A DNA stretch of 44,241 bases from Escherichia phage vB_EcoP_KAW1A4500. Numbering within the stretch: the first letter of the stretch is position 1; the number at the start of each line of letters is the position of its first letter. A program made the translations under genes and the position numbers. The stretch lies in the sequence record MK373773.1; one strand, given 5' to 3'. This document shows positions 268 through 35,001 of the stretch, piece by piece. Under the pieces are notes generated by a model. That model saw only the letters and a list, made by a program, of their open reading frames with translations, did no database searches and was not told where the DNA came from.

Positions 268-665
268 TCTGTTCGTTTCGCTCCACTGCGTTACGCTACA
301 CTCACCGCGCTTGTGTACCTTAGGTTATTCCTTGATGGATAGCTTAGGTTAGCCTTAGTGGACTACCTTAGTTAAAGCCTTAGTGCTTAGCTTAGTATCA
401 GCTTAGTAGTGTACCTTAGTCAGACTTAGTGTCTTCTCTTAGTGATTGCACATGCAAGCATGTAAGATGCCATTAGGTCGCGGTCGGTAGACCGCTAAAG
501 AAAGAGAATAGTAATAAGATGCAGTAGGAGGAACACCAGAAACCTAGCCTATCCTAGCTCTGTATCTATTGCTTTCCTTAGTCTCACATGTTAGACAACC
601 TATGTTTATCTTAGTAGTTGTGACATGTATCACATAAATAATCTATCTTAGTGAAACTTAGTGTT
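163..665. repeat. Array of about 18 short CTTAGT/CTTAGG repeats at the left end
   Basis: Irregularly spaced copies of (C)CTTAG(T/G) from inside the DTR to the first early promoter; positional analogue of the T7 left-end short-repeat array (analogy is inference). Confidence 0.55.
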
Positions 666-2470: not shown

Positions 2471-2662
2471 AGATAGAAAGGCAATATAACTTCATCTTCT
2501 CAGACGGTGTAACCCTGAAATGTTCCTTACGATTTGCGCAGATTCGTGAGGAAGTACTAGGAACTACATACAAGCTATTTAGCTGACACTATAAGAGAAG
2601 GCTTAACAAGGCGTTGCTACGGTAGCGCCTGATTAAACTTTCACTTACTAGGAGTTAAGATT

Positions 2663-2890: not shown

Positions 2891-2954
2891 CTAGCCTATA
2901 GCCTACCTGTGTGGGCTATGTGATATTTACTTACCACTATATAAGGTGACTATT

Positions 2955-3839
2955 ATGACTACTGAAAACACCCTCCTGTCTGTCCGCGAAGCTGCAACCG
3001 CTGAGATTAAGCAGCATTTGGATAATATCGGCACTTCTTACATCAAAGTAGGTGCTTGTCTGAATGAGTTACGCGGAGACTTCGAAGGTCAAAAAGAGTT
3101 CTTAGCCTATGTTGAAGCAGAGTTCGGCATCAAGAAAGCACAATGCTACAAGCTGATGAGTGTAGCCCGTGTCTTTGAAGGTGACGAACGATTCAAAGGC
3201 GTGGCTATGCGTGTAATGCTGGCGCTTGTTCCTTTCGCTGATGAGAGTATCATCATGGAGAAGGCCGCAGAACTTGCCGCAGAGGGCAAGCTGGACACTA
3301 ACGCCGTAAACGCCCTAATTGAGTCTAAGAAAGAGCCAAAGGCCGAGACGGTACAATCTAAGGCTGAGCCAGTAAAACCGCAGGAGAACGCGGCTGAGGC
3401 CGCAGAATCACAGGAAACGCAAGCGCCGCAGGTAGTGCCGCCAATGAGTGAGCCGGACACCGACGAATCCGCACAGTGGGAGGGCGAAAGCAAGCCGGAA
3501 GCACCTAAGGCTGCGCCTCTGGACAACACTGCTAACACAGAGAACGCCGCCATGGCTGGCCTGTTGGCACAAATTAAGGCACTGACTGAGCAATTACAGG
3601 CGGCTAACGACCGCATCGCAGCTCTAACCAGTGCACGTGAAAGCAAGAAGGCAGCCGCGCCTATGCTCCCACAATTCAAATCCAAATGTTTCTATGCTCG
3701 CTTGGGTTTGAGTGCTGAGGAGGCAGAGAAGAAAACAGCAGTGAACAAGGCACGCCGCGAACTGGTTAAACTGGGATACGGTGAAGGCCATGAGGCATGG
3801 CCCTTAATCTCTGAGGCAGTAGAAGAATTAACTAAGTAA
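2955..3839 (+). CDS. Early protein of unknown function (294 aa): HTH-like N-domain, Pro/Glu/Ala-rich linker, coiled-coil C-domain
   Basis: ORF track 2946..3839 with ATG at 2955; sits where T7 has gene 0.7 but shows no kinase-like sequence. Confidence 0.65.
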   Translation: MTTENTLLSVREAATAEIKQHLDNIGTSYIKVGACLNELRGDFEGQKEFLAYVEAEFGIKKAQCYKLMSVARVFEGDERFKGVAMRVMLALVPFADESIIMEKAAELAAEGKLDTNAVNALIESKKEPKAETVQSKAEPVKPQENAAEAAESQETQAPQVVPPMSEPDTDESAQWEGESKPEAPKAAPLDNTANTENAAMAGLLAQIKALTEQLQAANDRIAALTSARESKKAAAPMLPQFKSKCFYARLGLSAEEAEKKTAVNKARRELVKLGYGEGHEAWPLISEAVEELTK

Positions 3840-3902: not shown

Positions 3903-6528
3903 ATGCAAGACCTACACGCTATTCAACTTCAACTTGAAGAAGAAATGTTTAACGGCGGTATCCGTCGCTTTGAAGCGGACCAACAACGCCAGATTGCATC
4001 CGGTAATGAATCAGACACGGCATGGAATCGCCGTTTATTGTCCGAGTTAATCGCGCCAATGGCTGAAGGTATTCAGGCATACAAGGAAGAGTATGAAGGT
4101 AAAAGAGGCCGTGCACCGCGTGCATTAGCTTTCATTAACTGCGTAGAAAACGAAGTGGCAGCATATATCACGATGAAAATCGTTATGGATATGCTGAATA
4201 CAGACGTTACCTTACAAGCAATCGCTATGAATGTAGCGGACCGCATCGAAGACCAAGTACGTTTTAGCAAGCTGGAAGGTCACGCAGCTAAGTACTTTGA
4301 GAAAGTGAAGAAGTCGCTTAAGGCTAGCAAGACTAAATCTTATCGTCATGCGCACAACGTAGCGGTAGTAGCTGAGAAATCTGTTGCTGACCGTGACGCG
4401 GATTTCTCCCGTTGGGAGGCATGGCCTAAAGATACCTTGCTACAAATCGGTATGACCTTGCTAGAAATACTGGAAAATAGTGTATTCTTCAATGGTCAGC
4501 CTGTCTTTCTTCGCACCTTGCGCACTAATGGTGGCAAGCATGGCGTTTACTACTTACAGACCAGTGAACACGTAGGGGAATGGATTACAGCATTTAAAGA
4601 ACATGTAGCGCAACTTAGCCCGGCTTATGCACCTTGCGTTATACCTCCGCGTCCGTGGGTTTCTCCTTTTAATGGCGGTTTTCACACTGAGAAGGTAGCA
4701 AGTCGTGTGCGTCTTGTTAAAGGCAGCCGTGAACGTCCGCAAGCTGACCAAAAAGCAAATGCCAGCGGTTTACAAGGCTGTTAACGCTTTGCAGGCGACT
4801 AAATGGCAGGTTAACAAGGAAGTTTTACAGGTTGTTGAGGACGTAATACGGCTTGATTTAGGCTATGGCGTACCTTCCTTCAAACCACTCATCGACCGCG
4901 AGAACAAGCCAGCTAATCCGGTGCCGTTAGAGTTCCAGCACCTGCGAGGCCGTGAACTGAAAGAAATGTTAACACCGGAACAATGGCAAGCCTTCATCAA
5001 CTGGAAAGGTGAATGCACCAAGCTGTATACCGCTGAGACTAAGCGCGGCAGCAAATCGGCGGCGACCGTCCGCATGGTAGGGCAGGCCCGTAAATACAGC
5101 CAATTTGACGCAATATACTTCGTGTATGCTCTGGACAGCCGCAGCCGCGTCTACGCGCAATCTAGCACGCTCTCTCCGCAATCAAACGACTTAGGCAAGG
5201 CATTGCTCCGTTTTACCGAAGGGCAGCGTCTTGATAGCGCTGAGGCGCTTAAGTGGTTTTTGGTGAACGGGGCTAATAACTGGGGTTGGGATAAGAAAAC
5301 TTTTGACGTGCGCACCGCTAACGTGCTGGATAGTGAATTTCAAGACATGTGCCGCGACATTGCAGCGGATCCGCTGACCTTCACTCAATGGGTAAATGCC
5401 GACTCCCCTTACGGCTTCCTTGCATGGTGCTTTGAATATGCGCGTTATCTGGATGCACTGGATGAAGGCACGCAAGACCAATTCATGACGCACCTCCCAG
5501 TCCATCAAGATGGTAGTTGTTCTGGTATCCAGCACTACAGTGCTATGCTACGCGATGCAGTAGGTGCGAAAGCGGTAAACCTTAAGCCCTCTGACTCACC
5601 TCAAGATATTTATGGTGCCGTTGCGCAGGTAGTAATTCAGAAGAATTATGCATACATGAATGCAGAGGATGCGGAAACCTTCACTTCTGGCAGCGTGACT
5701 TTAACAGGTGCAGAACTTCGTAGCATGGCTAGTGCGTGGGATATGATAGGAATCACTCGCGGCCTGACCAAAAAGCCTGTAATGACACTACCTTATGGCA
5801 GCACACGTCTAACCTGCCGTGAATCAGTGATTGATTATATCGTTGATTTGGAAGAAAAAGAGGCCCAACGGGCTATTGCGGAAGGGCGTACCGCCAATCC
5901 TGTACATCCTTTTGATAATGACCGCAAAGACAGCCTGACACCTAGCGCAGCTTATAACTATATGACAGCTTTAATCTGGCCTTCTATTTCGGAAGTGGTT
6001 AAAGCTCCTATAGTGGCAATGAAAATGATTCGTCAGCTTGCACGTTTCGCAGCTAAAAGAAACGAAGGCTTAGAATATCCCTTACCAACTGGCTTCATCT
6101 TGCAACAAAAGATAATGGCTACCGATATGCTCCGCGTATCCACTTGCTTGATGGGTGAAATCAAGATGAGTCTCCAGATTGAAACAGATGTAGTTGATGA
6201 AACGGCAATGATGGGTGCGGCTGCTCCTAACTTCGTCCATGGTCACGATGCTAGCCACCTGATTCTGACTGTATGTGACCTAGTGGATAAAGGTATTACA
6301 TCCATTGCAGTCATCCATGATTCTTTCGGTACTCATGCAGGACGTACCGCAGACCTGCGGGATAGCTTAAGGGAAGAAATGGTTAAGATGTATCAAAACC
6401 ATAATGCCCTGCAAAATCTGCTAGATGTGCACGAAGAGCGTTGGTTAGTAGACACCGGAATCCAAGTACCAGAGCAAGGAGAGTTTGACCTTAACGAAAT
6501 CTTAGTTTCAGACTATTGTTTCGCATAA
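3903..6528 (+). CDS. Phage single-subunit DNA-directed RNA polymerase (SP6-type), interrupted by an apparent frameshift near 4734
   Basis: Two overlapping ORFs (3903..4784 and 4705..6528) together give an RNAP of about 874 aa; N-terminus [19 protein letters not shown] and palm motifs ([21 protein letters not shown]) match SP6-type RNAP as recalled. Confidence 0.9.
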
Positions 6529-6535
6529 TATTAAT

Positions 6536-6564
6536 AGGCCATTCCTTAGGGAGTGGCCTTTTTC
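6536..6564 (+). terminator. Intrinsic terminator after RNA polymerase gene (early terminator)
   Basis: AGGCCA/TGGCCT 6-bp stem with internal pairing followed by TTTTT, 8 bp after the RNAP stop. Confidence 0.6.
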
Positions 6565-6602: not shown

Positions 6603-6618
6603 GTCTCACATGTGAGAC
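6603..6618. promoter_or_regulatory. Perfect 16-bp palindrome GTCTCACATGTGAGAC (family copy 1)
   Basis: Perfect dyad; 2 bp upstream of promoter P1. Family copies at 6794, 9103, 10261, 15203, 31645. Confidence 0.7.
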
Positions 6619-6620
6619 TT

Positions 6621-6643
6621 ATTTACCGGACACTATAGGATAG
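6621..6643 (+). promoter_or_regulatory. Phage RNAP promoter P1 (ATTTACCGGACACTATAGGATAG), variant
   Basis: Matches the genome-wide SP6-type consensus at the GGACACTATAG core; positional analogue of T7 phi1.1A. Confidence 0.65.
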
Positions 6644-6659
6644 CCGTCGGAGACGGGAA

Positions 6660-6790
6660 AGAAAGGGAAGATAAAGGATATAAAGGAAGTAATAGGTATT
6701 AAAGGTTATATAGGTTATCTAGGAACACCTAGGAATACCTATTACCTTCTTCCTTCCTCTTATTACCACTTAGAGGAAGGGCAGACCTAG
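6660..6790. other. AT/purine-rich TAGG-repeat element with dyad symmetry; candidate primary replication origin
   Basis: Repeats of TAAAGG/TATAGG/CCTAGG between two tandem phage promoters, downstream of the RNAP gene and upstream of gp1.1-like and primase genes, as at the T7 primary origin (analogy is inference). Confidence 0.4.
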
Positions 6791-6793
6791 GTT

Positions 6794-6809
6794 GTCTCAC
6801 ATGTGAGAC
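6794..6809. promoter_or_regulatory. Perfect 16-bp palindrome GTCTCACATGTGAGAC (family copy 2)
   Basis: Identical to copy 1; 5 bp upstream of promoter-like P2. Confidence 0.7.
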
Positions 6810-6814
6810 TTCGT

Positions 6815-6837
6815 ATTTACCGGACAGTATAGATAAG
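6815..6837 (+). promoter_or_regulatory. Phage RNAP promoter-like P2 (ATTTACCGGACAGTATAGATAAG), degenerate
   Basis: 19/23 match to consensus, with a C-to-G change in the core; positional analogue of T7 phi1.1B. Confidence 0.45.
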
Positions 6838-6995: not shown

Positions 6996-8084
6996 ATGGC
7001 TATTATTCAGAACGTACCGTGTCCTGCCTGTCAAAAGAATGGACATGATATTACTGGCAACCATCTTATGATATTTGAGGATGGCGCTGGTTACTGCAAC
7101 CGTGGTCACTTCCATGATAACGGCAAGCCTTATTACCATAAGCCAGAGGGTGGCATCGAGATAACCGAATTACCTATTACTGGCAATATCAAATATACAC
7201 CTTCTCAGTTTAAAGAGATGGAGAAGGAAGGGAAGATTAGTGACCCTAAGCTACGCGCCATCGCACTTGGTGGTATGCGTATGAAAGACCGTTGGGAGGT
7301 CATGAATGAGCAAGAAAGGGCAGAACAAGAAGCAGAGTGGAAACTTGATGTTGAATGGTTCCTCACGCTCAAGCGTAAGAACCTTGTATCCCGTCACATT
7401 CGAGGTGACATCGCAGCAATGTACGATGTGCGCGTTGGACACGATGAAGAGGGAAGAGTCAACCGTCACTATTATCCACGATATGAAAAGGGTGTGCTTG
7501 TTGGAGCAAAATGCCGGACGTTGCCGAAGGATTTTAAGTTCGGACACCTAGGTAAACTCTTTGGTATGCAAGACCTTTTCGGTATGAACACTTTGTCTCA
7601 CGTGTTAGACAAGGGAAGACGAAAGGATTGCTTGCTTATTGTGGGCGGCGAACTGGATGCACTAGCAGCACAGCAGATGCTCCTTGATTCTGCCAAGGGT
7701 ACTAAGTGGGAAGGCCAGCCTTACCATGTATGGTCTGTCAATAAAGGTGAGTCTTGCCTTGAAGAGATAGTGCAGAACCGTGAGCATATCGCCCAATTCA
7801 AGAAGATTATATGGGGTTTTGATGGAGATGAGGTGGGGCAGAAGCAGAATCAGCAAGCGGCTCGCCTGTTTCCTGGCAAATCCTATATCCTTGAATACCC
7901 TTCTGGTTGCAAAGATGCTAACAAGGCATTGATGGCAGGGCTAAAGAGTTTGTTGATGCTTGGTTTAATGCCAAGTCATCTGATGAAGTCTTTGGTAGCC
8001 AGATTAAATCTATCGCATCTCAAAGGGATAAGCTCAAGGCTGCACGTCCAGAGCAAGGGTTATCATGGCCTTGGCCTAAGCTGA
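6996..8084 (+). CDS. DNA primase domain of a gene-4-like primase/helicase; ORF tail is out of frame
   Basis: N-terminal Cys4 zinc ribbon (CPACQ...CNRGH) and TOPRIM-like GFDGDE segment up to CKDAN; after about 7932 the homologous reading continues in another frame. Confidence 0.85.
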   Translation: MAIIQNVPCPACQKNGHDITGNHLMIFEDGAGYCNRGHFHDNGKPYYHKPEGGIEITELPITGNIKYTPSQFKEMEKEGKISDPKLRAIALGGMRMKDRWEVMNEQERAEQEAEWKLDVEWFLTLKRKNLVSRHIRGDIAAMYDVRVGHDEEGRVNRHYYPRYEKGVLVGAKCRTLPKDFKFGHLGKLFGMQDLFGMNTLSHVLDKGRRKDCLLIVGGELDALAAQQMLLDSAKGTKWEGQPYHVWSVNKGESCLEEIVQNREHIAQFKKIIWGFDGDEVGQKQNQQAARLFPGKSYILEYPSGCKDANKALMAGLKSLLMLGLMPSHLMKSLVARLNLSHLKGISSRLHVQSKGYHGLGLS

Positions 8085-8927
8085 ACAAGGTAACGCTAGG
8101 TATTCGTAAGAACCAGCTTATCATTGTAGGTGCAGGCTCTGGTGTAGGTAAGACTGAGTTCCTCCGCGAAGTGGTTAAACACCTCATTGAAGAGCACGGT
8201 GAATCTGTAGGCATCATTTCTACAGAAGACCCGATGGTCAAGGTGTCCCGTGCTTTTATCGGTAAGTGGATTGATAAGCGCATTGAGTTACCGCCAACCA
8301 ATGACCCGAAAGAAGACGGATACCGTGAGGTGTTCGACTACACCGAGGAAGAAGCTAACGCTGCCATTGATTATGTGGCTGATACAGGAAAGCTATTTGT
8401 GGCTGACTAGAAGGCGACTATTCTATGGAGAAGGTAGAGCAAACTTGCCTAGTTTGAGGCTATGGGCATTTCTAATATCATCATTGATAACTTAACGGGG
8501 ATTAAATTAGATGAGCGTGCTTTTGGGGAAGGTTGGTGCACTTGATGAATGCGTCAAACGAATTGGTACTATCAAAGACCGACATGCGGTTACGATTTTC
8601 CTTGTCTCTCACCTTACACGTCCTCCGGCAAACCGTACCCAACACGAAGAAGGTGGCGAAGTTATCCTTTCTGACTTCCGAGGCTCAGGCGCTATCGGAT
8701 TCTGGGCATCTTACGCCTTGGGATTGAGCGTAAGAGAACGCTTGATGAAAGGACTACCACGTACATCTCGTGTGTCAAAGACCGCGATCAAGGTATCTAC
8801 ACTGGAAAAGGTCATGCTTAAAGGTGACATTCAGACCGGACGTTTGATGGAACCACAAGCCCGTACTAAGTCATTTGATACAGTGAAGCAAGGCAGCAAG
8901 AGGTGCCTGATTTACCGGACACTATAG
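7922..8927 (+). pseudogene. Helicase domain of gene-4-like primase/helicase, split into at least three frame segments
   Basis: Walker A GAGSGVGKT in frame 2 (open 7922..8407), Walker B-like NIIIDNLTG in frame 2 (8453..8542), HEEGGEV...RGSGAI in frame 0 (8511..8927); stops in all three frames between 8404 and 8510. Confidence 0.8.
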
Positions 8928-8932
8928 AAGAG
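8910..8932 (+). promoter_or_regulatory. Phage RNAP promoter P3 (ATTTACCGGACACTATAGAAGAG)
   Basis: Near-perfect consensus 23-mer overlapping the 3-prime end of the helicase ORF. Confidence 0.8.
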
Positions 8933-8960
8933 AAAACTTTGAAGATGAACAGGAGTTTTA

Positions 8961-9086
8961 ATGGAAATTATTAAAAGTATTGATATCGGTATTGAGATTG
9001 TGATCAGATTATCACGATATGGATTCAAAGCGGTGAAAAATCTGGTTTTCTTATCAAATGTTCTTTATTGTAACACGCTTATCTAG
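8961..9086 (+). CDS. Small hydrophobic protein, hypothetical (41 aa)
   Basis: ATG at 8961 after AGGAG; first ORF downstream of P3; below ORF-track cutoff. Confidence 0.35.
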   Translation: MEIIKSIDIGIEIVIRLSRYGFKAVKNLVFLSNVLYCNTLI

Positions 9087-9102
9087 TGTATTTATCAGGG
9101 CT

Positions 9103-9120
9103 TGTCTCACACGTGAGACA
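9103..9120. promoter_or_regulatory. 18-bp palindrome TGTCTCAC-AC-GTGAGACA (family copy 3)
   Basis: Perfect 8-bp arms with 2-bp centre; GC-rich flanks extend the potential stem; intergenic. Confidence 0.7.
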
Positions 9121-9384
9121 GGCTTATTAAGTACATAAAAAATTGGAGATTGATTATGTATAATTAGTGCAGGTGATTATGTTCGTAACATCAATGCAAC
9201 CTCACGTAGATATCGTTGCCGTGGTACTAATGTAAGTGAAAACAGCTACTATGTAGAGTACAGTAATGGTATTAGACAGGCTTATCAAAAGGAATCAGCA
9301 CATAACTACCTTGAGAAGATTGGAGAGGTAAGCAATCAATGTAAGTGCGTACACGATGAGATTTGCGATAAGTGTGCCCGCCAG

Positions 9385-10260: not shown

Positions 10261-10278
10261 TGTCTCACACGTGAGACA
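10261..10278. promoter_or_regulatory. 18-bp palindrome TGTCTCAC-AC-GTGAGACA (family copy 4)
   Basis: Identical to copy 3; 10 bp after the stop of the 10042..10251 ORF. Confidence 0.7.
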
Positions 10279-15202: not shown

Positions 15203-15218
15203 GTCTCACGTGTGAGAC
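15203..15218. promoter_or_regulatory. 16-bp palindrome GTCTCAC-GT-GTGAGAC (family copy 5, centre inverted)
   Basis: Same 7-bp arms; starts 2 bp after the preceding stop and lies 15 bp upstream of P6. Confidence 0.7.
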
Positions 15219-15233
15219 AAATCGGTGTCCGGT

Positions 15234-15256
15234 ATTTACTGGACACTATAGAAGAG
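15234..15256 (+). promoter_or_regulatory. Phage RNAP promoter P6 (ATTTACTGGACACTATAGAAGAG)
   Basis: Exact consensus 23-mer. Confidence 0.85.
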
Positions 15257-27958: not shown

Positions 27959-28680
27959 TGGCTATAGGTTCAGCCGTTATGGCTGGTATGTCTTCTATTG
28001 GTAGCATGTTTGCAGGCAGTGGTGCAGCAGCCGCTGCTGGAGGTGCTGCCGCAGGTGGCGGAGGTTTGCTAGGTTCACTAGGCGGATTCCTAAGTGGTTC
28101 CACTGCTGGTTTCTCTAATGCTGGCCTTCTTGGTGCTGGCCTTCAAGGGTTAGGCTTGATTGGTGATCTATTTGGTGGAAGTGATGAAGCCAAGGCGATG
28201 AAGAAAGCACAAGAAGAGCAATGGCGGCAGCAGCTTATTGCTACACAAGAGGCGTACAAGACAGTGGCAGACGCAGAACGTTCTGCTGCTAAACAATATC
28301 ATGCAGATGCAATCAGTAATCAGGCTTCACTGCTACAGCAGCGAGCACAGGTTGCATTACTTGCTGGGGCTACTGGTACTGGTGGTAATTCTGTGTCCTC
28401 TATGCTTAATGACTTAGCAGCAGATGGCGGCAGGAACCAGAGTACTATCATTGATAACTATGAGAATCAGAAGATTAATTTCACCAACCAGCTTAAGTCT
28501 ATCCAACGTGGTGGTCAGATGCAGATGCGTGAGTTTAAGAAGCCTTCTGCTATGAATACCTTGGTTAAAGGTATTCCAAGTCTGGCATCTGCCTATGTAA
28601 CTGGTAGTAAGTCTGGCAAGGCATTGGGTAAAGCCTTAACTGATTCTCGCACATATTCATCTGGAACAAGAGGTATTTAA
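27958..28680 (+). CDS. Internal virion protein, Gly/Ala-rich membrane-associated (gp14-like)
   Basis: ORF track 27919..28680 with ATG at 27958 after AAGGAGGG; Gly/Ala-rich hydrophobic N-terminus. Confidence 0.62.
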   Translation: MAIGSAVMAGMSSIGSMFAGSGAAAAAGGAAAGGGGLLGSLGGFLSGSTAGFSNAGLLGAGLQGLGLIGDLFGGSDEAKAMKKAQEEQWRQQLIATQEAYKTVADAERSAAKQYHADAISNQASLLQQRAQVALLAGATGTGGNSVSSMLNDLAADGGRNQSTIIDNYENQKINFTNQLKSIQRGGQMQMREFKKPSAMNTLVKGIPSLASAYVTGSKSGKALGKALTDSRTYSSGTRGI

Positions 28681-31628
28681 TGGCAATTGAGCGACAAGCA
28701 GTACAAGGTCTGCCACAAGTGCAGGCCACTTCTCCTAATGTCATGACCTTTGCACCTCAACAAGTGGGAGGTGTGGAGGCTGGCGTGGCTTCTACCTCCG
28801 GTAGTAGATTTATCGAAGACCTTATTCGTGCAGCAAGCAGCGTGGCTGATGTTACCACTGGTATCCTTAATCAGAAGATTGAGGAAGATAAGGTTATTCA
28901 AATGGAGCGGGCATATAATGGATTAATGCCTTCTGAGGATGCAACTCGTGGTGGCGCTCGTGCTAACATGCTTGTCAAAGCTCAACTGCTAGCTAATGAT
29001 GAAGCAGCACGAATGAAAGACATGGCTACTCGTTTCCAAGGAACGGATGATGAGTGGACACAACTTATGGTTGACTCTCGTAATGAGATGCAGAATAAGC
29101 TGTTCCAGCAATACCCTGAGTTGCAAGGTGACAAAGATACTATGCGTATGGTCACTAATGTCTTCCAAGAACAGCAGCCTCAGATTTGGGCTACACGAAC
29201 CCAGCATAAACTTGACCGTGAACAAGCAGACCGTGAGGATACCTTTGACGGGCGAGTGGCTTCTACTTGGGATTCTAATATTGACCCTGAAGCCTCTGGC
29301 TATGCTTTACAGGAACGAATCCGCGAAGGTCTTACTCAAGGATTACTACCTGAACAGATGCACAAGAAGTTAGTCCAGCGAGCAATTTCACTTGCACAAG
29401 GCGGTGATGTTAGCATGGCTGAAGCCCTGAAGTATGTGAAGGACGATAAGGGTGTTTCTGTTTATGCTAAGAATCCACAGCTTATCACAGCCATCACTAG
29501 TGGTAATGCAGTTTGGGCTAGGAATAATGTAGCTGATGTAACTCGTATGTCTTTCGAAGTTAAAGAATCCTACCTTGCAGGTGATTTAACTGATGAAGAA
29601 CTGTTGGAACGAGCACAGCACATTAATAATCTGACAGGTAACTCTGTCTTCTCTAATCCAGAGCTAGAGGCACTGATGCGCCAACGGGCTAAGCAGAATG
29701 CAGAGCTAGGTGCAATGCAGGATATGCGACGTGAGCTTTACTCCGACCGCCTGACTGGCTTCCAAGGTAAGACTGATAAAGAGAAGAAGGCTTACATTGA
29801 TGTTATCAAACAGGATAGCCAACTTTATGCAGACCAGCAAATCAAACAACGTGGCTTGGACCCTTACAGTCAAGAGGCTGAAGCTATTCGTGGTGCAGTG
29901 GAAGTGCAGCGCCTGCAATTCATGAACTCCAAAGGCTTAGTGGATGATACCTTTGAGTCTCGTATCAAAGCCATGGAATCTATGCTATCGCCTGAGCACT
30001 TTGCCAAGGGCGAACCACAGGAGTTGATGACTATTCGCCAGTTGTGGGAACAGTTGCCAGAAGAGAGCCGAGGTGTCTTTGGTGACACGGTGAATGGCTA
30101 CATGGATAACTACAACACTGCACTACAAATGGGAGAGACACCTTTGCAGGCTGCAAGGTTTGCGCGTGAAGCACAGCAGAAATTCTCTCGTACTGAGAAG
30201 GAAACCAAGAAGTTCAACTCAGCTATTGGAGATGCACTGGATGAGGTATCTGGTGCTGGCTGGTTTGATGGTAAAACCGAAGTGTCAGACTTAGGTAAAG
30301 CTATTGCGGAAGAAGAGTTACGAGCTAAGGCCAATATGTTGTGGTCTAGTGGTATGCGTAACATGGATTCTATCAAGAAGGCTTTAATTACTTGGGGCAA
30401 TAAACGCTACACTCAAACAGAGGATGCAAAGACTTCCGGTGGCTATTTCATTAAAGGTGATTACACTTCTGCATCTGATATGCTTATGTCAGTTGGGAAA
30501 GGCGTAAACCCTACCGATGTACCTCTGGCGCTTGGTAGGTATGTAGAAACACAGATGCCAGAATTGAAGAAGGAGCTTCAAGAGTGGGAAACTAAAGATG
30601 ATATATACATTGATTACAATGAACAGAAAGGAACTTTTGTGATTCGTGCTGGTGCAGCAGGTCGCCCTCTTTCTGGAGTAATCCCTGTAACTTCTTTGGA
30701 TACCACTTCACTACTGGATTCTGCCTATCAGAAGAAAGTAGAAGAACGAGATAAAGGCGAGTATGTTCACCCGTATCGTACAGATATTGGTGCACAAGAG
30801 CCTATGCCAGCTAAACCAACTGCCAAAGATATTGGTAAATTTGGACTAGCTAACTTCCTCATGTCTTCTGCTTTTGCTTCTGGTGAGAATCTACCTTCTA
30901 ACTTCGAGATTAACTATCGAGGTAATATGCAACAATTCTATGACAAGCTAGCTATGGATGAGAATAAAGATAAAGTTGGCTTTAATAAGGCAACTGGAAC
31001 CTTTACTCCATATAAAGACGCTCACGGTGAGTCTATCGGTTACGGTCATTTCTTAACGGAAGAAGAGAAGCGAAACGGGTATATTAAGATTGGCGATGAA
31101 CTAGTTCCCTATCGAGGGTCTATGTCTCAGCTTACAGAGAGTAAGGCTCGCGCTCTTATGGAGCAAGATGCTAAGAAGCATGTGCCTTCTACTCGTGACT
31201 GGAAGATTCCGTTTGACCAGATGCATCCTGCACAGCAACGTGGCTTGATGGATTTAACCTACAATTTAGGTAAAGGTGGAATCCAGAACTCACCGCGTGC
31301 TCTTGCTGCATTCAAAGCTGGTAAGCTTACGGAAGGCTTTATCGAAATGCTGGGCACTGCATCAAGTGAAGGTAAGCGTATTCCTGGCCTACTGAAGCGA
31401 CGCGCTGAGGCATACAATATGGCATCTGCTGGTGGTGTGCCTAAGATTACCGAAGTGGAGACTCGTGAAGATGGCTCCATGTGGGTTAGGTTTGGTGGAC
31501 CTATGCCAGCAGGTTCTGTCTCGGCATGGACTCATAAACGTATTGGCGCGGATGGTTGGTATCAGGTTTATGAGGCTGCACCTACCAAGTTAGCTAAAGG
31601 TTCTAAGGTAGGTAAAGTTAAGTTGTAG
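28680..31628 (+). CDS. Internal virion (ejection) protein with C-terminal lysozyme-like domain (982 aa)
   Basis: Large ORF in the internal-core position; C-terminal region (about 31020..31470) has a phage-lysozyme-like pattern GYGHFLTEEE...GLMDLTYNLGKGG. Confidence 0.75.
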   Translation: MAIERQAVQGLPQVQATSPNVMTFAPQQVGGVEAGVASTSGSRFIEDLIRAASSVADVTTGILNQKIEEDKVIQMERAYNGLMPSEDATRGGARANMLVKAQLLANDEAARMKDMATRFQGTDDEWTQLMVDSRNEMQNKLFQQYPELQGDKDTMRMVTNVFQEQQPQIWATRTQHKLDREQADREDTFDGRVASTWDSNIDPEASGYALQERIREGLTQGLLPEQMHKKLVQRAISLAQGGDVSMAEALKYVKDDKGVSVYAKNPQLITAITSGNAVWARNNVADVTRMSFEVKESYLAGDLTDEELLERAQHINNLTGNSVFSNPELEALMRQRAKQNAELGAMQDMRRELYSDRLTGFQGKTDKEKKAYIDVIKQDSQLYADQQIKQRGLDPYSQEAEAIRGAVEVQRLQFMNSKGLVDDTFESRIKAMESMLSPEHFAKGEPQELMTIRQLWEQLPEESRGVFGDTVNGYMDNYNTALQMGETPLQAARFAREAQQKFSRTEKETKKFNSAIGDALDEVSGAGWFDGKTEVSDLGKAIAEEELRAKANMLWSSGMRNMDSIKKALITWGNKRYTQTEDAKTSGGYFIKGDYTSASDMLMSVGKGVNPTDVPLALGRYVETQMPELKKELQEWETKDDIYIDYNEQKGTFVIRAGAAGRPLSGVIPVTSLDTTSLLDSAYQKKVEERDKGEYVHPYRTDIGAQEPMPAKPTAKDIGKFGLANFLMSSAFASGENLPSNFEINYRGNMQQFYDKLAMDENKDKVGFNKATGTFTPYKDAHGESIGYGHFLTEEEKRNGYIKIGDELVPYRGSMSQLTESKARALMEQDAKKHVPSTRDWKIPFDQMHPAQQRGLMDLTYNLGKGGIQNSPRALAAFKAGKLTEGFIEMLGTASSEGKRIPGLLKRRAEAYNMASAGGVPKITEVETREDGSMWVRFGGPMPAGSVSAWTHKRIGADGWYQVYEAAPTKLAKGSKVGKVKL

Positions 31629-31644
31629 TACCTAACTCAAGGCT

Positions 31645-31662
31645 TGTCTCACATGTGAGACA
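31645..31662. promoter_or_regulatory. 18-bp perfect palindrome TGTCTCACATGTGAGACA (family copy 6)
   Basis: Between the two large internal virion protein genes; flanked by GGCT/AGGTC, extending the potential stem. Confidence 0.7.
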
Positions 31663-31692: not shown

Positions 31693-34600
31693 ATGGAACA
31701 AGACATTAAGACTAATTGGGCTGGATATGTCCAGTCTACTCCTGAGCCGTTTTCTATTGAGGCGGCTCCGGTATCGGCTCCTACGATACGCCAGCGTAAT
31801 GAGTTACAAGAGCAAGTTCTTGAAGCTAAAGCTGACGCTGATATTTTAGGTGCTGTAGGTGCTGCCTTCCAGAATGAGTGGTTGGCATTCGGAGGCAAGC
31901 GGTGGTATGACCGTGCCACTGCTGATTTCACACCTCAACCAGACTTTGAGATACAACCTGAGCAACGTGAAGCACTACGTTTCAAATATGGTACGGATAT
32001 GATGCAGACAATCACTGAGGGTGTTCGTTCTGAGGATGAATTGAACTTCCGTATTCAGAATGCTGATGAAGACCTTGAGCGCAATAAGCGCATTGCTCAG
32101 GCTGGCTGGGTTGGCTCTGTGGCGACGATTGGCGCTGCTGTGCTTGACCCTGTGGGATGGGTTGCCTCTATTCCAACCGGTGGTGCCGCTAAAGTTGGAC
32201 TCGTAGGACGTGCTGTGCGTGGCGCTATCGCCGCTGGCGTGAGTAATGCCGCTATTGAATCCGTATTGGTCCAAGGTGACATGACTCGTGATTTAGATGA
32301 CATTATGGTAGCACTAGGTTCCGGTATGGCGATGGGTGGCGTTATTGGCGCTGTAGCGCGTGGTAGGGCCACTAAGCTCAGTGAGCAAGGGGATGACAGG
32401 GCTGCGAGCATTGTGCGCAGTGCAGACGCAGGGGACCGCTATGTGCGTGCTGTTGCTGATGATAGTATCGGTGCGATGCGTGTTAAGGGTGAAGAGGTAC
32501 TCACGGAGGGTGCATTTGATGTCTCTAGCAAAGGTGAAGATTTGCTGAAAACCCTACAGCGGGAAGGTAATGCAATTGATATGACCCCTCGCCGCTGGGC
32601 CGGAACTCTGTCTGCCCTTGGTACTGTCGTACATTCCTCTCAGGATGCAAGTGTACGCGGCCTTGGTGCTCGCCTGTTTGAGTCCCCCCAAGGCTTAGGT
32701 ATGCAGAAGGCATCTGCTAGTCTCATGCAGAATACTAACTTGAACCGTCTGAAATCTGCTGATATGAATCGTTTCAACGATGGGTTCGATTTATGGCTCA
32801 AAGAGAATAATATCAACCCGGTTGCAGGTCATACTAACTCTCACTATGTGCAGCAATATAATGAGAAGGTATGGGAAGCTGTACGCATCGGTATGGACGA
32901 GTCTACGCCTAAGTCTATCCGTATGGCAGCAGAGGGGCAGCAAGCTATGTATCGTGAAGCATTAGCATTACGTCAACGCTCTGGTGAAGCTGGGTTTGAA
33001 AAGGTTAAAGCAGATGATAAGTACATGCCTGATATTTTTGACAGTATGAAGGCTCGTCGTCAATTCAGTATGCACGATAAAGAGGACATCATTGAGTTAT
33101 TCTCTCGTGCATACCAGAATGGTTCTCGTAAGGTTCCAAAGGAAGTGGCTGATGATATTGCACGAGCACAAGTAAACCGCGTTGCTGATGCCACCTTGAC
33201 CGGACAGCTTAGCTTTGAAAAGGCTATGTCTGGTCAAACCAAAGCAGAATATGAAGCACTCATGCGCAAAGCAGGCTTTAGTGATGAAGAGATTGAAAAG
33301 ATGGTAGAAGCTCTGGATAATAAAGAAACCAGAGATAATATCTCTAACCGAGCTAAGATGAGTTTAGGCTTAGATGTTACTCAAGAGTACAATGGTATTC
33401 GTATGCGTGACTTTATGAACACTAACGTGGAAGAGTTAACAGATAACTACATGAAGGAAGCGGCAGGTGGTGCTGCCTTGGCTCGTCAAGGTTTCTCTAC
33501 CTATCAGGCTGCACTTAATGCAATTGATCTTGTAGAGCGAAATGCACGAAATGCAGCTAAAGATACAAAAGCACACGCACAATTTGAAGCGGAGTCGGCT
33601 AAGATCCGTCAATCAGAGCCTGATTACAAGAAGGCACAAGAGAAGATTGAAGAGTTAAAGAAGCGACTTAAATTGAAAGAGAAAGATGAAGCAGCAGGTC
33701 TGGCTATTGATGAAGAAATCCGTCAGATGCGAGAGGGGCTTCGCTTGATTATGGGTAAATCTATCGATTCAAACCCACAAGATTTGTCTACTAAAATGCT
33801 GCGTCGTGGGCGTGACATTACAGGCGTACTTCGCTTAGGTCAGATGGGCTTCGCACAGCTAGGTGAACTTGCTAACTTCATGGGTGAGTTTGGTATTGCT
33901 GCCACCACTATGGCTTTAGGTAAGCAATTCCGCTTCACCTCTAAGGCGTTGCGTAATGGCGATGGCTTCTTTCGAGATAAGAATTTAGCTGAGGTTGAGC
34001 GAATGGTAGGTTACATTGGTGAAGACAACTGGCTAACAACTAAGGGTGCGCGTCCAGATGAGTTTGGTGATGTAACCACAGTGCGAGGTATGATGGCCCA
34101 TTTTGACCAGTCCATGAACTCTATACGACGTGCTCAGACAAACCTATCCCTCTTCCGCATGGCACAGGGTTCTCTGGAGCGAATGACCAATAGGCAAATA
34201 GCTTTGTCTTTCATTGACCACCTTGAAGGCAAGAAGATTATCCCTCAGAAGAAACTGGAGGAACTTGGTCTTACTCAGGAGTTCATGACTAACCTACAGA
34301 AGCACTATGATGCTAACTCTAAAGGTTCTGGCTTGCTTGGCTTTGATACAATGCCTTATGCCATGGGTGAAACTTTAGCTAATGCTATTCGTCGTAAGTC
34401 AGGTCTAATTATCCAACGTAACTTCATTGGTGATGAAGGTATCTGGATGAACAAAGCACTAGGTAAGACATTTGCACAGCTTAAGTCATTCTCTCTTGTA
34501 TCTGGTGAGAAGCAATTTGGTCGAGGGATTCGACACGATAAAATTGGTCTTGCTAAGAAGACAGCTTACGGGTTTGCTTTGGGTTCAATAGTGTATGCGG

Positions 34601-35001
34601 CAAAAGCCTATGTGAACTCTATTGGGCGAGAAGACCAAGATGAATATTTGGAAGAGAAGTTATCGCCTAAAGGGTTGGCCTTTGGTGCAATGGGTATGAT
34701 GAGTACAACTGCTGTATTTAGTCTAGGTGGAGATTTCTTAGGTGGCCTAGGTGTTCTGCCTTCTGAGTTAGTACAATCCCGTTATGAGGCTGGCTTTCAG
34801 ACTAAGGGTTTGATAGACCAAATACCACTAGTAGGTGTTGGTCAAGATGCATATCGTTTAGCAGATTCTATAACTAAATATGCAGAGGGTGATACAGAAG
34901 GTGTAGATGTGGCACGTAGGGCTTTACGCTTAGTGCCTCTAACTAATGTAATAGGAATCCAGAACGCATTGCGTTATGGCTTAGATGAACTGGAGGATTG
35001 A
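31693..35001 (+). CDS. Large internal virion (ejection) protein, gp16-like (1102 aa)
   Basis: Largest ORF; GGAGG RBS; position equivalent to T7 gene 16. Confidence 0.75.
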   Translation: MEQDIKTNWAGYVQSTPEPFSIEAAPVSAPTIRQRNELQEQVLEAKADADILGAVGAAFQNEWLAFGGKRWYDRATADFTPQPDFEIQPEQREALRFKYGTDMMQTITEGVRSEDELNFRIQNADEDLERNKRIAQAGWVGSVATIGAAVLDPVGWVASIPTGGAAKVGLVGRAVRGAIAAGVSNAAIESVLVQGDMTRDLDDIMVALGSGMAMGGVIGAVARGRATKLSEQGDDRAASIVRSADAGDRYVRAVADDSIGAMRVKGEEVLTEGAFDVSSKGEDLLKTLQREGNAIDMTPRRWAGTLSALGTVVHSSQDASVRGLGARLFESPQGLGMQKASASLMQNTNLNRLKSADMNRFNDGFDLWLKENNINPVAGHTNSHYVQQYNEKVWEAVRIGMDESTPKSIRMAAEGQQAMYREALALRQRSGEAGFEKVKADDKYMPDIFDSMKARRQFSMHDKEDIIELFSRAYQNGSRKVPKEVADDIARAQVNRVADATLTGQLSFEKAMSGQTKAEYEALMRKAGFSDEEIEKMVEALDNKETRDNISNRAKMSLGLDVTQEYNGIRMRDFMNTNVEELTDNYMKEAAGGAALARQGFSTYQAALNAIDLVERNARNAAKDTKAHAQFEAESAKIRQSEPDYKKAQEKIEELKKRLKLKEKDEAAGLAIDEEIRQMREGLRLIMGKSIDSNPQDLSTKMLRRGRDITGVLRLGQMGFAQLGELANFMGEFGIAATTMALGKQFRFTSKALRNGDGFFRDKNLAEVERMVGYIGEDNWLTTKGARPDEFGDVTTVRGMMAHFDQSMNSIRRAQTNLSLFRMAQGSLERMTNRQIALSFIDHLEGKKIIPQKKLEELGLTQEFMTNLQKHYDANSKGSGLLGFDTMPYAMGETLANAIRRKSGLIIQRNFIGDEGIWMNKALGKTFAQLKSFSLVSGEKQFGRGIRHDKIGLAKKTAYGFALGSIVYAAKAYVNSIGREDQDEYLEEKLSPKGLAFGAMGMMSTTAVFSLGGDFLGGLGVLPSELVQSRYEAGFQTKGLIDQIPLVGVGQDAYRLADSITKYAEGDTEGVDVARRALRLVPLTNVIGIQNALRYGLDELED

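What the first reader, a model, noticed from the sequence alone, without database searches (positions are those of the whole stretch)
2955..3839. Large early protein of unknown function in the position of the T7 protein kinase gene
The 294-aa product has three parts: an N-terminal roughly 125-aa domain with an HTH-like segment (...FLAYVEAEFGIKKAQCYKLMSVARVF...), a roughly 90-aa Pro/Glu/Ala/Gln-rich linker, and a helical C-terminal domain (...LLAQIKALTEQLQAANDRIAALT...FYARLGLSAEEAEKK...). It sits between Ocr and the RNA polymerase, where T7 encodes the gp0.7 kinase and host-shutoff protein, but I see no kinase-like sequence. An early, host-promoter-driven position fits host takeover or anti-defence.
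Basis: partly seen in the sequence, partly recalled or inferred. Interest (0 to 1): 0.6.

Follow-up and report, generated by a model that had tools for sequence, protein, structure and literature searches.

The report
Phage DNA-binding regulator with J-like tail
This conserved early gene of SP6-like phages, so far annotated only as hypothetical, most likely encodes a paired DNA-binding protein that reads a 16-base palindrome present eight times in the phage's own genome, several copies next to promoters, and that carries a crippled copy of the domain that normally recruits the Hsp70 chaperone.

Summary
The ORF is real: 2955-3839, 294 aa, an early gene between an Ocr homologue and the RNA polymerase gene. 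The phage is SP6/K1E-like (Vectrevirus), not T7-like. The protein is K1E gp6 / SP6 gene 6 (phrog_4571, function unknown). It is conserved full-length just upstream of the RNA polymerase gene in Molineuxvirinae and Colwellvirinae.

Its parts are a DUF3102-type helix-turn-helix domain with a ParB/KorB-like fold, an acidic disordered linker, a short coiled coil, and a C-terminal J-like domain whose HPD motif is replaced by GYGEGH. No kinase is present.

The window holds eight copies of the palindrome GTCTCAC-NN-GTGAGAC. One lies upstream of the early host-type promoters, three lie next to phage promoters, and one lies inside the primase gene. Across about 50 related phages the half-site co-varies with residues 63 and 66 of the predicted recognition helix (K66 with C, N/H66 with A, seen in two separate lineages). 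No column of the adjacent RNA polymerase shows this.

Best reading: a dimeric, KorB-like site-specific DNA-binding regulator of the phage's own genome, with the J-like domain as effector. Binding and regulatory effect are inferred, not shown.

The parts
2943..2948 (+). Shine-Dalgarno AAGGTG, 6 nt before the ATG
   Evidence: Read directly from the sequence.
2955..3839 (+). CDS, 294 aa plus stop. Orthologue of K1E gp6 and SP6 gene 6; phrog_4571.
   Evidence: (E 1.4e-128, full length).
2955..3329 (+). N-terminal all-helical domain (residues 1-125). DUF3102-type with a ParB/KorB-like helix-turn-helix fold.
3090..3176 (+). Predicted helix-turn-helix: helix 46-57, turn, recognition helix 61-74 (KAQCYKLMSVARVF). 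Q63 is at nt 3141-3143 and K66 at nt 3150-3152; these are the proposed specificity residues.
   Evidence: Secondary structure. Positions 63 and 66 are hypervariable inside an otherwise conserved helix. They are the two N-domain columns best associated with the palindrome class.
3330..3527 (+). Acidic disordered linker (residues 126-191, pI 4.2). It contains the acidic-aromatic motif DESAQWEGES. Relatives have P at residue 174; the window has Q, caused by A at nt 3475.
3528..3650 (+). Long helix (residues 192-232) with a 3-4 heptad pattern (L203, I207, L210, L214, A217, I221, L224). Putative dimerising coiled coil.
   Evidence: AlphaFold2 helix 192-232. Conserved L203, L204, I207, L210. The heptad pattern was read from the sequence.
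3657..3836 (+). Conserved APMLPQF motif followed by a J-like domain (residues 235-294). The place of the HPD motif is taken by Y275-G276-E277 within the conserved GYGEGH loop.
581..596 (.). Palindrome copy 1, GTCTCACATGTTAGAC (1 mismatch). It lies 24 bp upstream of the -35 hexamer of the first sigma-70-like early promoter (620-649; a second at 664-692).
   Evidence: A site at the same place exists in SP6 (493), VEN (571), Nerthus (438) and PM116 (386).
6603..6618 (.). Palindrome copy 2, GTCTCACATGTGAGAC. It ends 1 nt before the phage promoter at 6620-6638, just after the early terminator at 6536-6559.
6794..6809 (.). Palindrome copy 3, perfect. It ends 4 nt before the phage promoter at 6814-6832.
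7595..7610 (.). Palindrome copy 4, GTCTCACGTGTTAGAC (2 mismatches), inside the primase/helicase ORF. The site is conserved in SP6, where a His-to-Asn codon change follows the half-site change.
9104..9119 (.). Palindrome copy 5, GTCTCACACGTGAGAC, intergenic.
10262..10277 (.). Palindrome copy 6, intergenic, upstream of the DNA polymerase region.
15203..15218 (.). Palindrome copy 7, GTCTCACGTGTGAGAC, 14 nt upstream of the phage promoter at 15233-15251.
31646..31661 (.). Palindrome copy 8, perfect, between the two large internal-virion-protein ORFs (28680-31628 and 31693-35001).

Best explanation
The gene encodes an early protein that most likely works as a homodimer.

Mechanism proposed:
- A short coiled coil (residues about 200-228) pairs two chains.
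- Each chain carries an N-terminal DUF3102-type helix-turn-helix domain with a ParB/KorB-like fold.
- The pair reads the two half-sites of the 16-bp palindrome GTCTCAC-NN-GTGAGAC.
- Residues Q63 and K66 of the recognition helix set the inner bases of the half-site.

The phage genome carries eight such sites: one 24 bp upstream of the early host-type promoters, two abutting the first two phage promoters after the RNA polymerase gene, one near the promoter at 15.2 kb, one inside the primase gene, and three in other intergenic gaps.

The protein would therefore be a genome-wide regulator acting on the phage's own DNA, in the manner of plasmid RK2 KorB with its dispersed operators. The most probable role is timing or limiting transcription at the borders of the early operon and at some phage promoters. 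Replication control at the origin-like region between sites 2 and 3 is a close alternative.

The acidic linker and the C-terminal J-like domain (J-domain fold, HPD replaced by a conserved GYGEGH loop) would form the effector end. They would contact a partner, either the DnaK/DnaJ system without canonical ATPase stimulation, or an RNA polymerase.

Shown here: the ORF, its conservation and synteny, the domain homologies, the sites, and the covariation between protein and site. Inferred: physical binding, dimerisation, the direction of the regulatory effect, and the partner of the J-like domain.
For: Family and synteny: the protein is conserved full-length and sits next to the RNA polymerase gene in SP6-, K1E-, Erwinia-, Proteus-, Vibrio-, Pseudomonas- and Marinomonas-infecting podophages.

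Sites:
- The palindrome occurs 8 times at up to 3 mismatches, against 0.21 expected by chance.
- It is the only recurrent palindrome family in the window.
- 7 of 8 copies lie in the 14% of the window not covered by ORFs, P about 9e-6.
- 3 copies abut phage promoters.

Covariation between recognition-helix residues and half-site:
- Q63/K66 goes with GTCTCAC in Vectrevirus, Erwinia, Vibrio and Pseudomonas phages and in two clades with other J-like loop types. These proteins are only 35-46% identical, and the phages use four different phage-promoter types.
- Q63 with N66 or H66 goes with GTC(C/T)AAC in the SP6/Salmonella/Klebsiella/Proteus group, which is 50-74% identical to the window protein.
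- The same N66 pairing appears independently in a clade about 25% identical (L174-176).
- Y63/R66 goes with GTCTACA, W63/R66 with GTCTAGT, F63/R66 with GTTCACC, and S65 with GTTTCAC.

Statistics: column 66 carries 1.44 of 1.66 bits of class information, with 0.11 bits of variation within classes, and column 63 ranks next. None of 860 columns of the adjacent RNA polymerase comes close; the best scores 0.41.

Other support:
- K paired with a G:C base pair and N paired with A fit the usual amino-acid-to-base preferences (established knowledge).
- In the reverse search, 8 of 11 viral stretches with at least 2 palindromes encode the protein with the KAQxYK helix, against 1 of 69 single-copy stretches.
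- The control phage K1F lacks both the gene and any recurrent palindrome.
- The intragenic primase site keeps its place in SP6 while a His codon becomes Asn, following the half-site change.
- J-like domain.
Against: - No binding experiment exists and none could be run here.
- The window protein itself hits neither DUF3102 nor DnaJ in Pfam. Both assignments rest on relatives and on a predicted structure.
- The N-domain is net acidic, pI about 5.
- Only the RNA polymerase was tested as a covariation control. Another phage protein could co-vary too.
- The number of independent specificity switches is small, about 5-6.
- Only 3 of 10 phage promoters carry a site, and the spacing to +1 varies (-27 to -40). 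A simple promoter-operator logic is therefore not established.
- One locus with Q63/R66 (L177) showed no recurrent palindrome.
- Palindromes are also potential RNA hairpins, and some have G.U-compatible flanks.
- The older SP6 and K1-5 genome papers could not be read, so prior description of the repeat cannot be excluded.
Confidence: 0.6

Rival explanations
1. Host-chaperone hijacker. The main job would be done by the C-terminal J-like domain, which binds DnaK or the J-domain of DnaJ/CbpA. It would redirect or inhibit the Hsp70 system, as Rki of phage RB43 does when it stabilises sigma-32, or as Tim16 restrains Tim14. The N-domain would be only a scaffold or targeting module.
For: The J-domain homology of the C-terminus is solid at family level, and the fold matches J-domains and both Tim14 and Tim16. 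Two relatives keep a true HPD and pass the Pfam DnaJ threshold (P0254, 43.7 bits). They sit in phage-early-like contexts. A phage J-domain protein with an early role is known (PMC3486835). Helix II stays basic.
Against: HPD is missing in 138 of 140 representatives. In the window protein the helix II positions equivalent to DnaJ R22, Y25 and R27 are N, R and E. Mutation of HPD abolishes functional interaction with Hsp70 (PMC3486835). This reading does not explain the palindromes or their covariation with residues 63 and 66. It is compatible with the best explanation as the effector step.
Confidence: 0.2
2. The palindromes are RNA elements, such as processing sites, stabilising hairpins or translation enhancers, or they are read by some other phage factor. 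The match with residues 63 and 66 of this protein would then be coincidental or indirect. The protein's function would remain unrelated and unknown.
For: All sites lie on the transcribed strand. Many sit just 5' of Shine-Dalgarno sequences. Three window copies have flanks that extend the stem with G.U pairs. T7-type phages use RNase III hairpins between genes (established knowledge).
Against: A purely structural hairpin would drift copy by copy. Here all copies in a genome change together, and the same 7-mer persists across phages whose proteins share only about 35% identity. Imperfect copies break RNA pairing: C.U at 581, C.A in L042. The central 2-3 nt vary freely. Position 66 stands out against 120 own columns and 860 RNA polymerase columns. 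The stem of 7-8 bp is short for RNase III.
Confidence: 0.15
3. Replication-origin factor. The protein would bind the palindromes that flank the origin-like region after the RNA polymerase gene and would help to start or organise phage DNA replication. Its J-like domain would act as in SV40 large T antigen, or as DnaJ/DnaK act at lambda and plasmid origins.
For: Sites 2 and 3 (6603, 6794) bracket two phage promoters and a purine- and AT-rich repeated stretch at 6640-6790. That is the position where T7 has its primary origin behind promoters 1.1A and 1.1B (established knowledge). This pair of sites is near-universal in relatives. A J domain combined with a sequence-specific DNA-binding domain is the T-antigen layout.
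Against: The sites are spread over 31 kb, including the left end and the late region. No origin has been mapped here. HPD is absent. It is an early gene, expressed before the replication genes.
Confidence: 0.2
4. Functional analogue of T7 gp0.7 or gp2, or an anti-defence protein. On this reading it shuts off host transcription, or blocks a host immune system, by protein-protein contacts.
For: Early position between Ocr and the RNA polymerase gene. The long acidic linker carries a conserved acidic-aromatic motif in part of the family. From memory, SP6-like phages lack gp0.7 and gp2 homologues.
Against: No kinase or known anti-defence similarity. The gene is a conserved core gene across hosts as different as Vibrio, Pseudomonas and E. 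coli, unlike typical accessory anti-defence genes. The DNA-site covariation points to the phage genome.
Confidence: 0.1

Closest known systems
KorB of IncP plasmid RK2 (ParB-family global repressor)
   Different: No detectable sequence similarity. No ParB N-terminal CTP-binding domain and no KorA or IncC partner seen. This protein has a coiled coil plus a J-like domain instead of the KorB C-terminal dimerisation domain. The genome is a lytic phage, not a plasmid.
ParB/Spo0J/Noc/SopB centromere-binding proteins
   Different: It lacks the defining ParB/Srx N-domain, and no ParA gene was noticed. The sites are dispersed rather than clustered into a centromere.
Pfam DUF3102 (PF11300), uncharacterised
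   Same: 68 of 129 relatives match it at the same region (profile positions 23-73 against the helix-turn-helix), best E 1.2e-10. Viral DUF3102 proteins are the structural neighbours in BFVD.
   Different: The window protein itself gives no hit. The family has no known function, and only three papers in the held library mention it, each only once or twice.
Rki (gp057w) of T4-like phage RB43, the first functional phage J-domain protein
   Same: An early phage protein carrying a J-type domain (PMC3486835).
   Different: Rki has a working HPD and needs it. Here HPD is replaced, the domain is C-terminal, and it is fused to a DNA-binding domain.
SV40 large T antigen and E. coli CbpA (J domain plus DNA binding)
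   Same: A J-type domain combined with a DNA-binding module in one protein. This rests on my own knowledge, not on a test here.
   Different: Both have a canonical HPD J domain at the N-terminus and unrelated DNA-binding domains. CbpA binds curved DNA without sequence specificity.
Tim16/Pam16 (J-like protein without HPD)
   Different: A mitochondrial import-motor subunit. The similarity is in fold only.
T7 gp0.7 protein kinase and host shut-off protein
   Same: Gene position between the Ocr gene and the RNA polymerase gene, and early expression.
   Different: No kinase domain and no sequence or fold similarity.

Membership tests
J-domain proteins (Pfam DnaJ, PF00226) | J fold: helices I-III(IV) with an antiparallel helix II/III hairpin | tested here: met
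J-domain proteins (Pfam DnaJ, PF00226) | Conserved His-Pro-Asp tripeptide in the loop between helices II and III | tested here: not met
   The window has KLGYGEGHEAW. GYGxGH is invariant in the 28-sequence clade. HPD is present in only 2 of 140 representatives.
J-domain proteins (Pfam DnaJ, PF00226) | Stimulates the ATPase of Hsp70/DnaK | not testable with these tools
   This needs a biochemical assay. HPD mutations abolish functional interaction in known J-domains (PMC3486835).
DUF3102 (PF11300) | Match to the Pfam profile above the gathering score (24.4 bits) | tested here: inconclusive
   The window protein has no hit even at E<=10. 68 of 129 homologues match at E<=0.1, and at least one passes the cut-off (P0159, 26.7 bits). 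Membership rests on transitive homology: phmmer E 1e-10 to 1e-90 between the window protein and those homologues.
ParB/KorB family | N-terminal ParB/Srx CTP-binding domain | tested here: not met
   No Pfam or NCBIfam hit. The helix-turn-helix domain starts within about 25 residues of the N-terminus.
ParB/KorB family | Helix-turn-helix DNA-binding domain of the ParB type | tested here: met
ParB/KorB family | Binds a palindromic parS or operator sequence | tested here: inconclusive
   Binding is inferred from covariation of helix residues 63 and 66 with the recurrent palindrome. There is no physical test.
T7 gp0.7 protein kinase | Ser/Thr protein kinase domain | tested here: not met
   No kinase family in Pfam or NCBIfam. 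The all-helical model has no kinase-like neighbour.
T7 gp0.7 protein kinase | Early gene located between gene 0.3 and gene 1 | tested here: met
   Ocr homologue at 2099-2470 and RNA polymerase from 3903.
phrog_4571 (K1E gp6 / SP6 gene 6 family) | Full-length match to the family profile | tested here: met
   E 1.4e-128, residues 1-294 against profile positions 1-287 of 289. 92-93% identical to K1E gp6 and 67% identical to SP6 gene 6.

The most novel reading that the evidence does not exclude
SP6-like and Colwellvirinae podophages share a so far undescribed regulatory system. An early DUF3102-type helix-turn-helix protein has a specificity that is re-set by two helix residues (63 and 66). It marks 5-10 palindromic sites on the phage chromosome, at the borders of the early operon, beside phage promoters and the likely origin, and even inside the primase and RNA polymerase genes. 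Through a J-domain that has lost HPD it brings or blocks the host Hsp70 machinery, or an RNA polymerase, at those sites to drive the early-to-middle switch. This would be a T-antigen-like coupling of site-specific DNA binding and chaperone control in a bacterial virus. It would also give DUF3102 its first function and a readable recognition code.
Probability: 0.25. Interest if true: 0.8.

Novelty: new variant of a known kind. Interest (0 to 1): 0.68.

Why it matters
SP6 and its relatives are classic phages. They are the source of SP6 RNA polymerase and include K1- and Klebsiella-capsule-specific therapy candidates. Even so, this conserved early gene next to the polymerase gene is still 'hypothetical' in every record seen, or carries a spurious name (endolysin, VLTF-4, UPF0137).

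The analysis turns it into a directly testable hypothesis with a defined protein, a defined 16-bp DNA site and two defined specificity residues.

If confirmed, it would:
- reveal how these phages, which from memory lack T7's gp0.7, gp2 and gp3.5 regulators, time their transcription or replication;
- assign a first function and a recognition code to DUF3102;
- add a second and very different case of a J-type domain in a phage, one that has abandoned HPD;
- matter for engineered SP6-like therapeutic phages, where deleting 'hypothetical' early genes or recoding intergenic regions could remove a regulator or its sites.

Tried and rejected
Searches that gave nothing useful:
- Direct searches of the window protein found nothing in Pfam, NCBIfam or PADLOC and only noise against PDB sequences.
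- A profile of the GYGxGH clade alone does not reach J-domains in the PDB. The J assignment needs the wider family, hhalign and the fold.
- The N-domain profile has no sequence-level PDB match.
- The afdb50 fold library was not available.
Single-protein and small-alignment scans returned few loci.
- A second homologue search with a distant profile was again swamped by Vectrevirus sequences.
- Literature searches for DUF3102, SP6/K1-5 early genes, Molineuxvirinae with DnaJ, the palindrome sequence, and transcriptomics found nothing on this gene or the repeat. One paper only states that gp6 is of unidentified function in SP6 (PMC4099482). The 2004 SP6 genome paper is not held.

Ideas rejected:
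- Kinase or gp0.7 analogue: no such domain.
- Record names 'endolysin/andolysin', 'late transcription factor VLTF-4', 'periplasmatic protein', 'UPF0137' and 'PRK05035' have no support in any search here and probably come from the low-complexity linker.
- The palindrome as part of the phage promoter: promoters differ among phages that share the palindrome.
- The palindrome as a purely structural RNA hairpin: see the rival explanations.
- The SSB-tail-like acidic PF/PW motif as a universal feature: it is present in only about a quarter of representatives.
Full report
**1. The observation**

The ORF is present as described: ATG 2955 to stop 3839, 294 aa, with a Shine-Dalgarno AAGGTG 6 nt upstream. 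The mechanical ORF list starts it at GTG 2946. That codon lies inside the Shine-Dalgarno, and almost all database orthologues are 294 aa and start MTTEN.

The gene lies in an early region:
- Sigma-70-like promoters sit at 620-649, 664-692 and 1631-1659.
- A strong hairpin plus T-run at 6536-6559 follows the RNA polymerase gene.
- Upstream are small ORFs of unknown function, an Ocr homologue (2099-2470, phrog_2568) and a 75-aa ORF (2663-2890).
- Downstream is the RNA polymerase gene.

**2. Identity of the phage and the family**

The region is 99.9% identical to Escherichia phage vB_EcoA_fTuEco01 and about 92% identical to K1E. The window is therefore a Vectrevirus (Molineuxvirinae, SP6-like), not a T7-like phage in the strict sense. 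The product is K1E gp6 / SP6 gene 6 and matches phrog_4571 (unknown function) end to end, E 1.4e-128.

tblastn finds it in 213 phage records, 210 of them covering at least 80% of the protein. Hosts include Escherichia, Klebsiella, Salmonella, Proteus, Erwinia, Pectobacterium, Vibrio, Pseudomonas and Marinomonas, with identity down to about 32%. In Vibrio phage VEN, Pseudomonas phage Nerthus and Klebsiella phage Roth32 the gene again lies just upstream of the RNA polymerase gene.

An exhaustive HMMER scan of 1.84 billion representatives finds only 140 clusters at 50% identity. This is a compact, essentially phage-restricted family. The only statement about it that I found in the literature is that gp6 'is likely to be of unidentified function in SP6' (PMC4099482).

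**3. Architecture**

The window protein hits nothing in Pfam, NCBIfam, PADLOC or PDB sequences. AlphaFold2 on a 24-sequence alignment gives:
- a confident helical N-domain (residues 1-123);
- a disordered acidic stretch (126-192; pI 4.2, E/A/P-rich);
- a long helix (192-232) with a regular a/d pattern (L203, I207, L210, L214, A217, I221, L224);
- a confident small helical domain (239-293).

The HPD tripeptide is absent. The window has KLGYGEGHEAW, GYGxGH is invariant in its clade, and only 2 of 140 representatives keep HPD. A profile of the clade alone does not reach J-domains, so the assignment is transitive. I therefore call it a J-like domain, not a J-domain protein.

**4. The lead that changed the picture**

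A terminator scan flagged a perfect 16-bp palindrome twice. GTCTCACATGTGAGAC occurs eight times at up to 3 mismatches, at 581, 6603, 6794, 7595, 9104, 10262, 15203 and 31646. Chance expectation is 0.21. It is the only recurrent palindrome family in the window.

Seven of the eight copies lie in the 14% of the window not covered by ORFs (P about 9e-6). Their positions are as follows:
- Copy 1 is 24 bp upstream of the -35 of the first early promoter.
- Copies 2 and 3 end 1 and 4 nt before the first two phage promoters (TATTTACCGGACACTATAG).
- Copy 7 is 14 nt before another phage promoter.
- Copy 4 lies inside the primase gene.

**5. Comparative test**

The same arms, GTCTCAC...GTGAGAC, recur 4-8 times in Vibrio phage VEN, Pseudomonas phage Nerthus and Erwinia phiEa100. 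Their orthologues are only 35-46% identical to the window protein, and their phage promoters all differ. Proteus PM116 has TGTCCAACA(n)TGTTGGACA at homologous places.

Using 39 loci from IMG/VR and further loci from three sub-family scans and a metagenome scan, I compared the dominant palindrome of each locus with the predicted recognition helix, window residues 60-68, KKAQCYKLM:

| Helix residues | Half-site | Where seen |
|---|---|---|
| Q63/K66 | GTCTCAC | Vectrevirus, Erwinia, Vibrio and Pseudomonas phages, plus two clades with different J-like loops (L089, L105, L185) |
| Q63 with N66 or H66 | GTC(C/T)AAC | SP6, Salmonella, Klebsiella, Lelliottia, Pectobacterium and Proteus phages |
| Q63/N66, independent lineage | GTCTAAC | A clade about 25% identical (L174-176) |
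| Y63/R66 | GTCTACA | L047, L049, L050 |
| W63/R66 | GTCTAGT | Roth32 (L002), L051 |
| F63/R66 | GTTCACC | L046 |
| Q63/S65/K66 | GTTTCAC | L192 |

Vectrevirus proteins are 67-74% identical to the N66 group. Yet they share both K66 and the GTCTCAC site with phages at about 35% identity.

SP6 has nine sites at positions homologous to those of the window. At the intragenic primase site the window reads TCT CAC GTG TTA GAC (S H V L D). SP6 reads TCT AAC GTG TTG GAC (S N V L D). A His-to-Asn change in the primase thus follows the half-site change.

Positions 63 and 66 are the hypervariable positions of an otherwise conserved helix across all 140 representatives. On 51 unique loci, column 66 carries 1.44 of 1.66 bits of class information with 0.11 bits of within-class variation, and column 63 is next. 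None of 860 columns of the adjacent RNA polymerase approaches this; the best score is 0.41 against 1.32.

In the reverse direction, among viral stretches found by the palindrome alone, 8 of 11 with at least 2 copies encode the protein, all with KAQxYK. Two of the remaining three come from contigs known to carry it. Only 1 of 69 single-copy, chance-level stretches does. Phage K1F lacks the gene and has no recurrent palindrome.

**6. DNA or RNA**

The palindromes could fold in the mRNA, and three copies have G.U-compatible flanks. Several points favour a double-stranded DNA site read by a symmetric dimer:
- Imperfect copies do not preserve pairing (C.U at 581; C.A in three sites of L042).
- The central 2-3 nt vary freely.
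- All copies in a genome change together.
- The residue-to-base pairs fit the usual major-groove preferences: Lys with a G:C pair, Asn or His with A, Arg with a G:C pair.

This remains an inference.

**7. Mechanism proposed**

The protein is made early from host promoters. It dimerises through the short coiled coil and binds the eight operators through its helix-turn-helix. The near-universal sites are the one just upstream of the early promoters and the pair just after the RNA polymerase gene, that is, the two borders of the early operon that contains the gene itself. This suggests control of early transcription and of the hand-over to the phage polymerase, as a repressor, a roadblock or a recruiter.

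Sites 2 and 3 also bracket a purine- and AT-rich stretch (6640-6790), where T7 has its primary origin. A replication role is therefore a serious alternative.

The closest working analogue is KorB of RK2: a ParB-type helix-turn-helix with many dispersed palindromic operators. The protein fails the ParB membership test because it has no CTP-binding N-domain.

The J-like domain, together with the conserved APMLPQF motif and the acidic linker, is the likely effector end. Its loop motif is conserved within clades but differs between them (GYGxGH, YTxExN, IFNAKTCP). That pattern looks like a partner interface. Without HPD, classical stimulation of DnaK is unlikely. Docking on DnaK, pairing with a host J-domain as Tim16 does, or contact with an RNA polymerase all remain open.

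**8. Comparison, novelty and limits**

The ingredients are known kinds: a helix-turn-helix regulator with operators, and a J-type domain in a phage (Rki, PMC3486835). What I could not find described is:
- their combination;
- the loss of HPD;
- the assignment of a DNA target and a two-residue specificity code to a DUF3102 protein;
- the existence of this site system across two podophage subfamilies.

Limits:
- There is no experiment.
- The domain calls for the window protein itself are transitive.
- Fold scores are modest.
- There are only about 5-6 independent specificity switches.
- Only one control protein and one control phage were used.
- One Q63/R66 locus showed no clear site (L177).

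**9. Verdict**

The best explanation, at confidence 0.6, is a dimeric, KorB-like site-specific DNA-binding regulator of the phage genome with a degenerate J-domain effector. Interest is 0.68. It is a new variant of a known kind.

Noticed in passing
window 4732-4733 (RNA polymerase gene, ORFs 3903-4784 and 4705-6528): The RNA polymerase gene is split into two overlapping ORFs by a 2-bp deletion (AC) relative to the near-identical phage fTuEco01, where it is one 875-aa ORF. This could be a sequencing error or a real frameshift. A very similar 2-nt deletion with a GTG restart was reported for Vibrio phage phiAs51 (PMC4099482).
   Followed up: partly
window 7900-9300 (primase/helicase; ORF 6996-8084 ends early): Compared with fTuEco01 the window has many 1-12 bp deletions here, and the primase/helicase reading frame is broken (362 aa instead of 662). 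Beyond about 7 kb the two genomes are only about 95% identical. This suggests poor sequence quality or a mosaic or defective genome.
   Followed up: partly
window 1977/1978 and 540/541: The window lacks 271 bp that fTuEco01 has upstream of the Ocr gene (including a small annotated ORF) and lacks a 9-bp unit, AACCTAGCC, near the left end. The first 260 bp also differ at many positions.
   Followed up: no
window 2576-2594 and 2897-2920: There is a weak phage-promoter-like sequence, TATTTAGCTGACACTATAA (3 mismatches, closer to the SP6 type), upstream of ORF 2663-2890 and the gene studied. A 10-bp-stem hairpin lies between that ORF and the gene. Together they might add phage-polymerase-driven or processed expression of the gene and of the RNA polymerase gene.
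   Followed up: no
window 6640-6790: A purine-rich, AT-rich, internally repetitive stretch (ggaaagaaagggaagataaaggatataaaggaag...) lies between the first two phage promoters and their palindromes. This is the place where T7 has its primary replication origin.
   Followed up: no
window 3474-3476 (residue 174): The window protein has Gln where its closest relatives have Pro, in an acidic 'P-W/F-D/E' motif of the linker (ESAQWEG against ESAPWEE). The motif resembles the SSB C-terminal tip in some relatives (DEDDIPFD in P0130; PFDxG in many). It occurs in only about a quarter of representatives.
   Followed up: partly
homologues P0129-P0235 (for example P0130, P0150, P0235): Most distant homologues carry an extra 60-200-aa N-terminal extension with a recurring '...TLK..K...' motif. 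It is absent from the window protein. Its function is unknown.
   Followed up: no
L009:4636, L010:5159, L180:4986, L047:13683, L049:3062: Colwellvirinae-type phages keep a palindrome copy inside the RNA polymerase gene at a homologous place. Its half-site follows the specificity class of the phage (GTCTCAC or GTCTACA).
   Followed up: partly
L002:8353-8440 (Klebsiella phage Roth32); L045:6738-6790: There are tandem arrays of a 10-bp unit just downstream of the RNA polymerase region in two relatives: CTATAGTAAG about 10 times, and GACGTCATGG about 5 times. They lie close to palindrome copies.
   Followed up: no
GenBank records KY295891, KY295893, OQ729742, PQ657801, MZ031013 (orthologues of the gene): Orthologues are annotated as 'andolysin/endolysin', 'late transcription factor VLTF-4', 'periplasmatic protein', 'UPF0137 family protein' or 'PRK05035 superfamily'. 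None of these names is supported by any search made here.
   Followed up: yes
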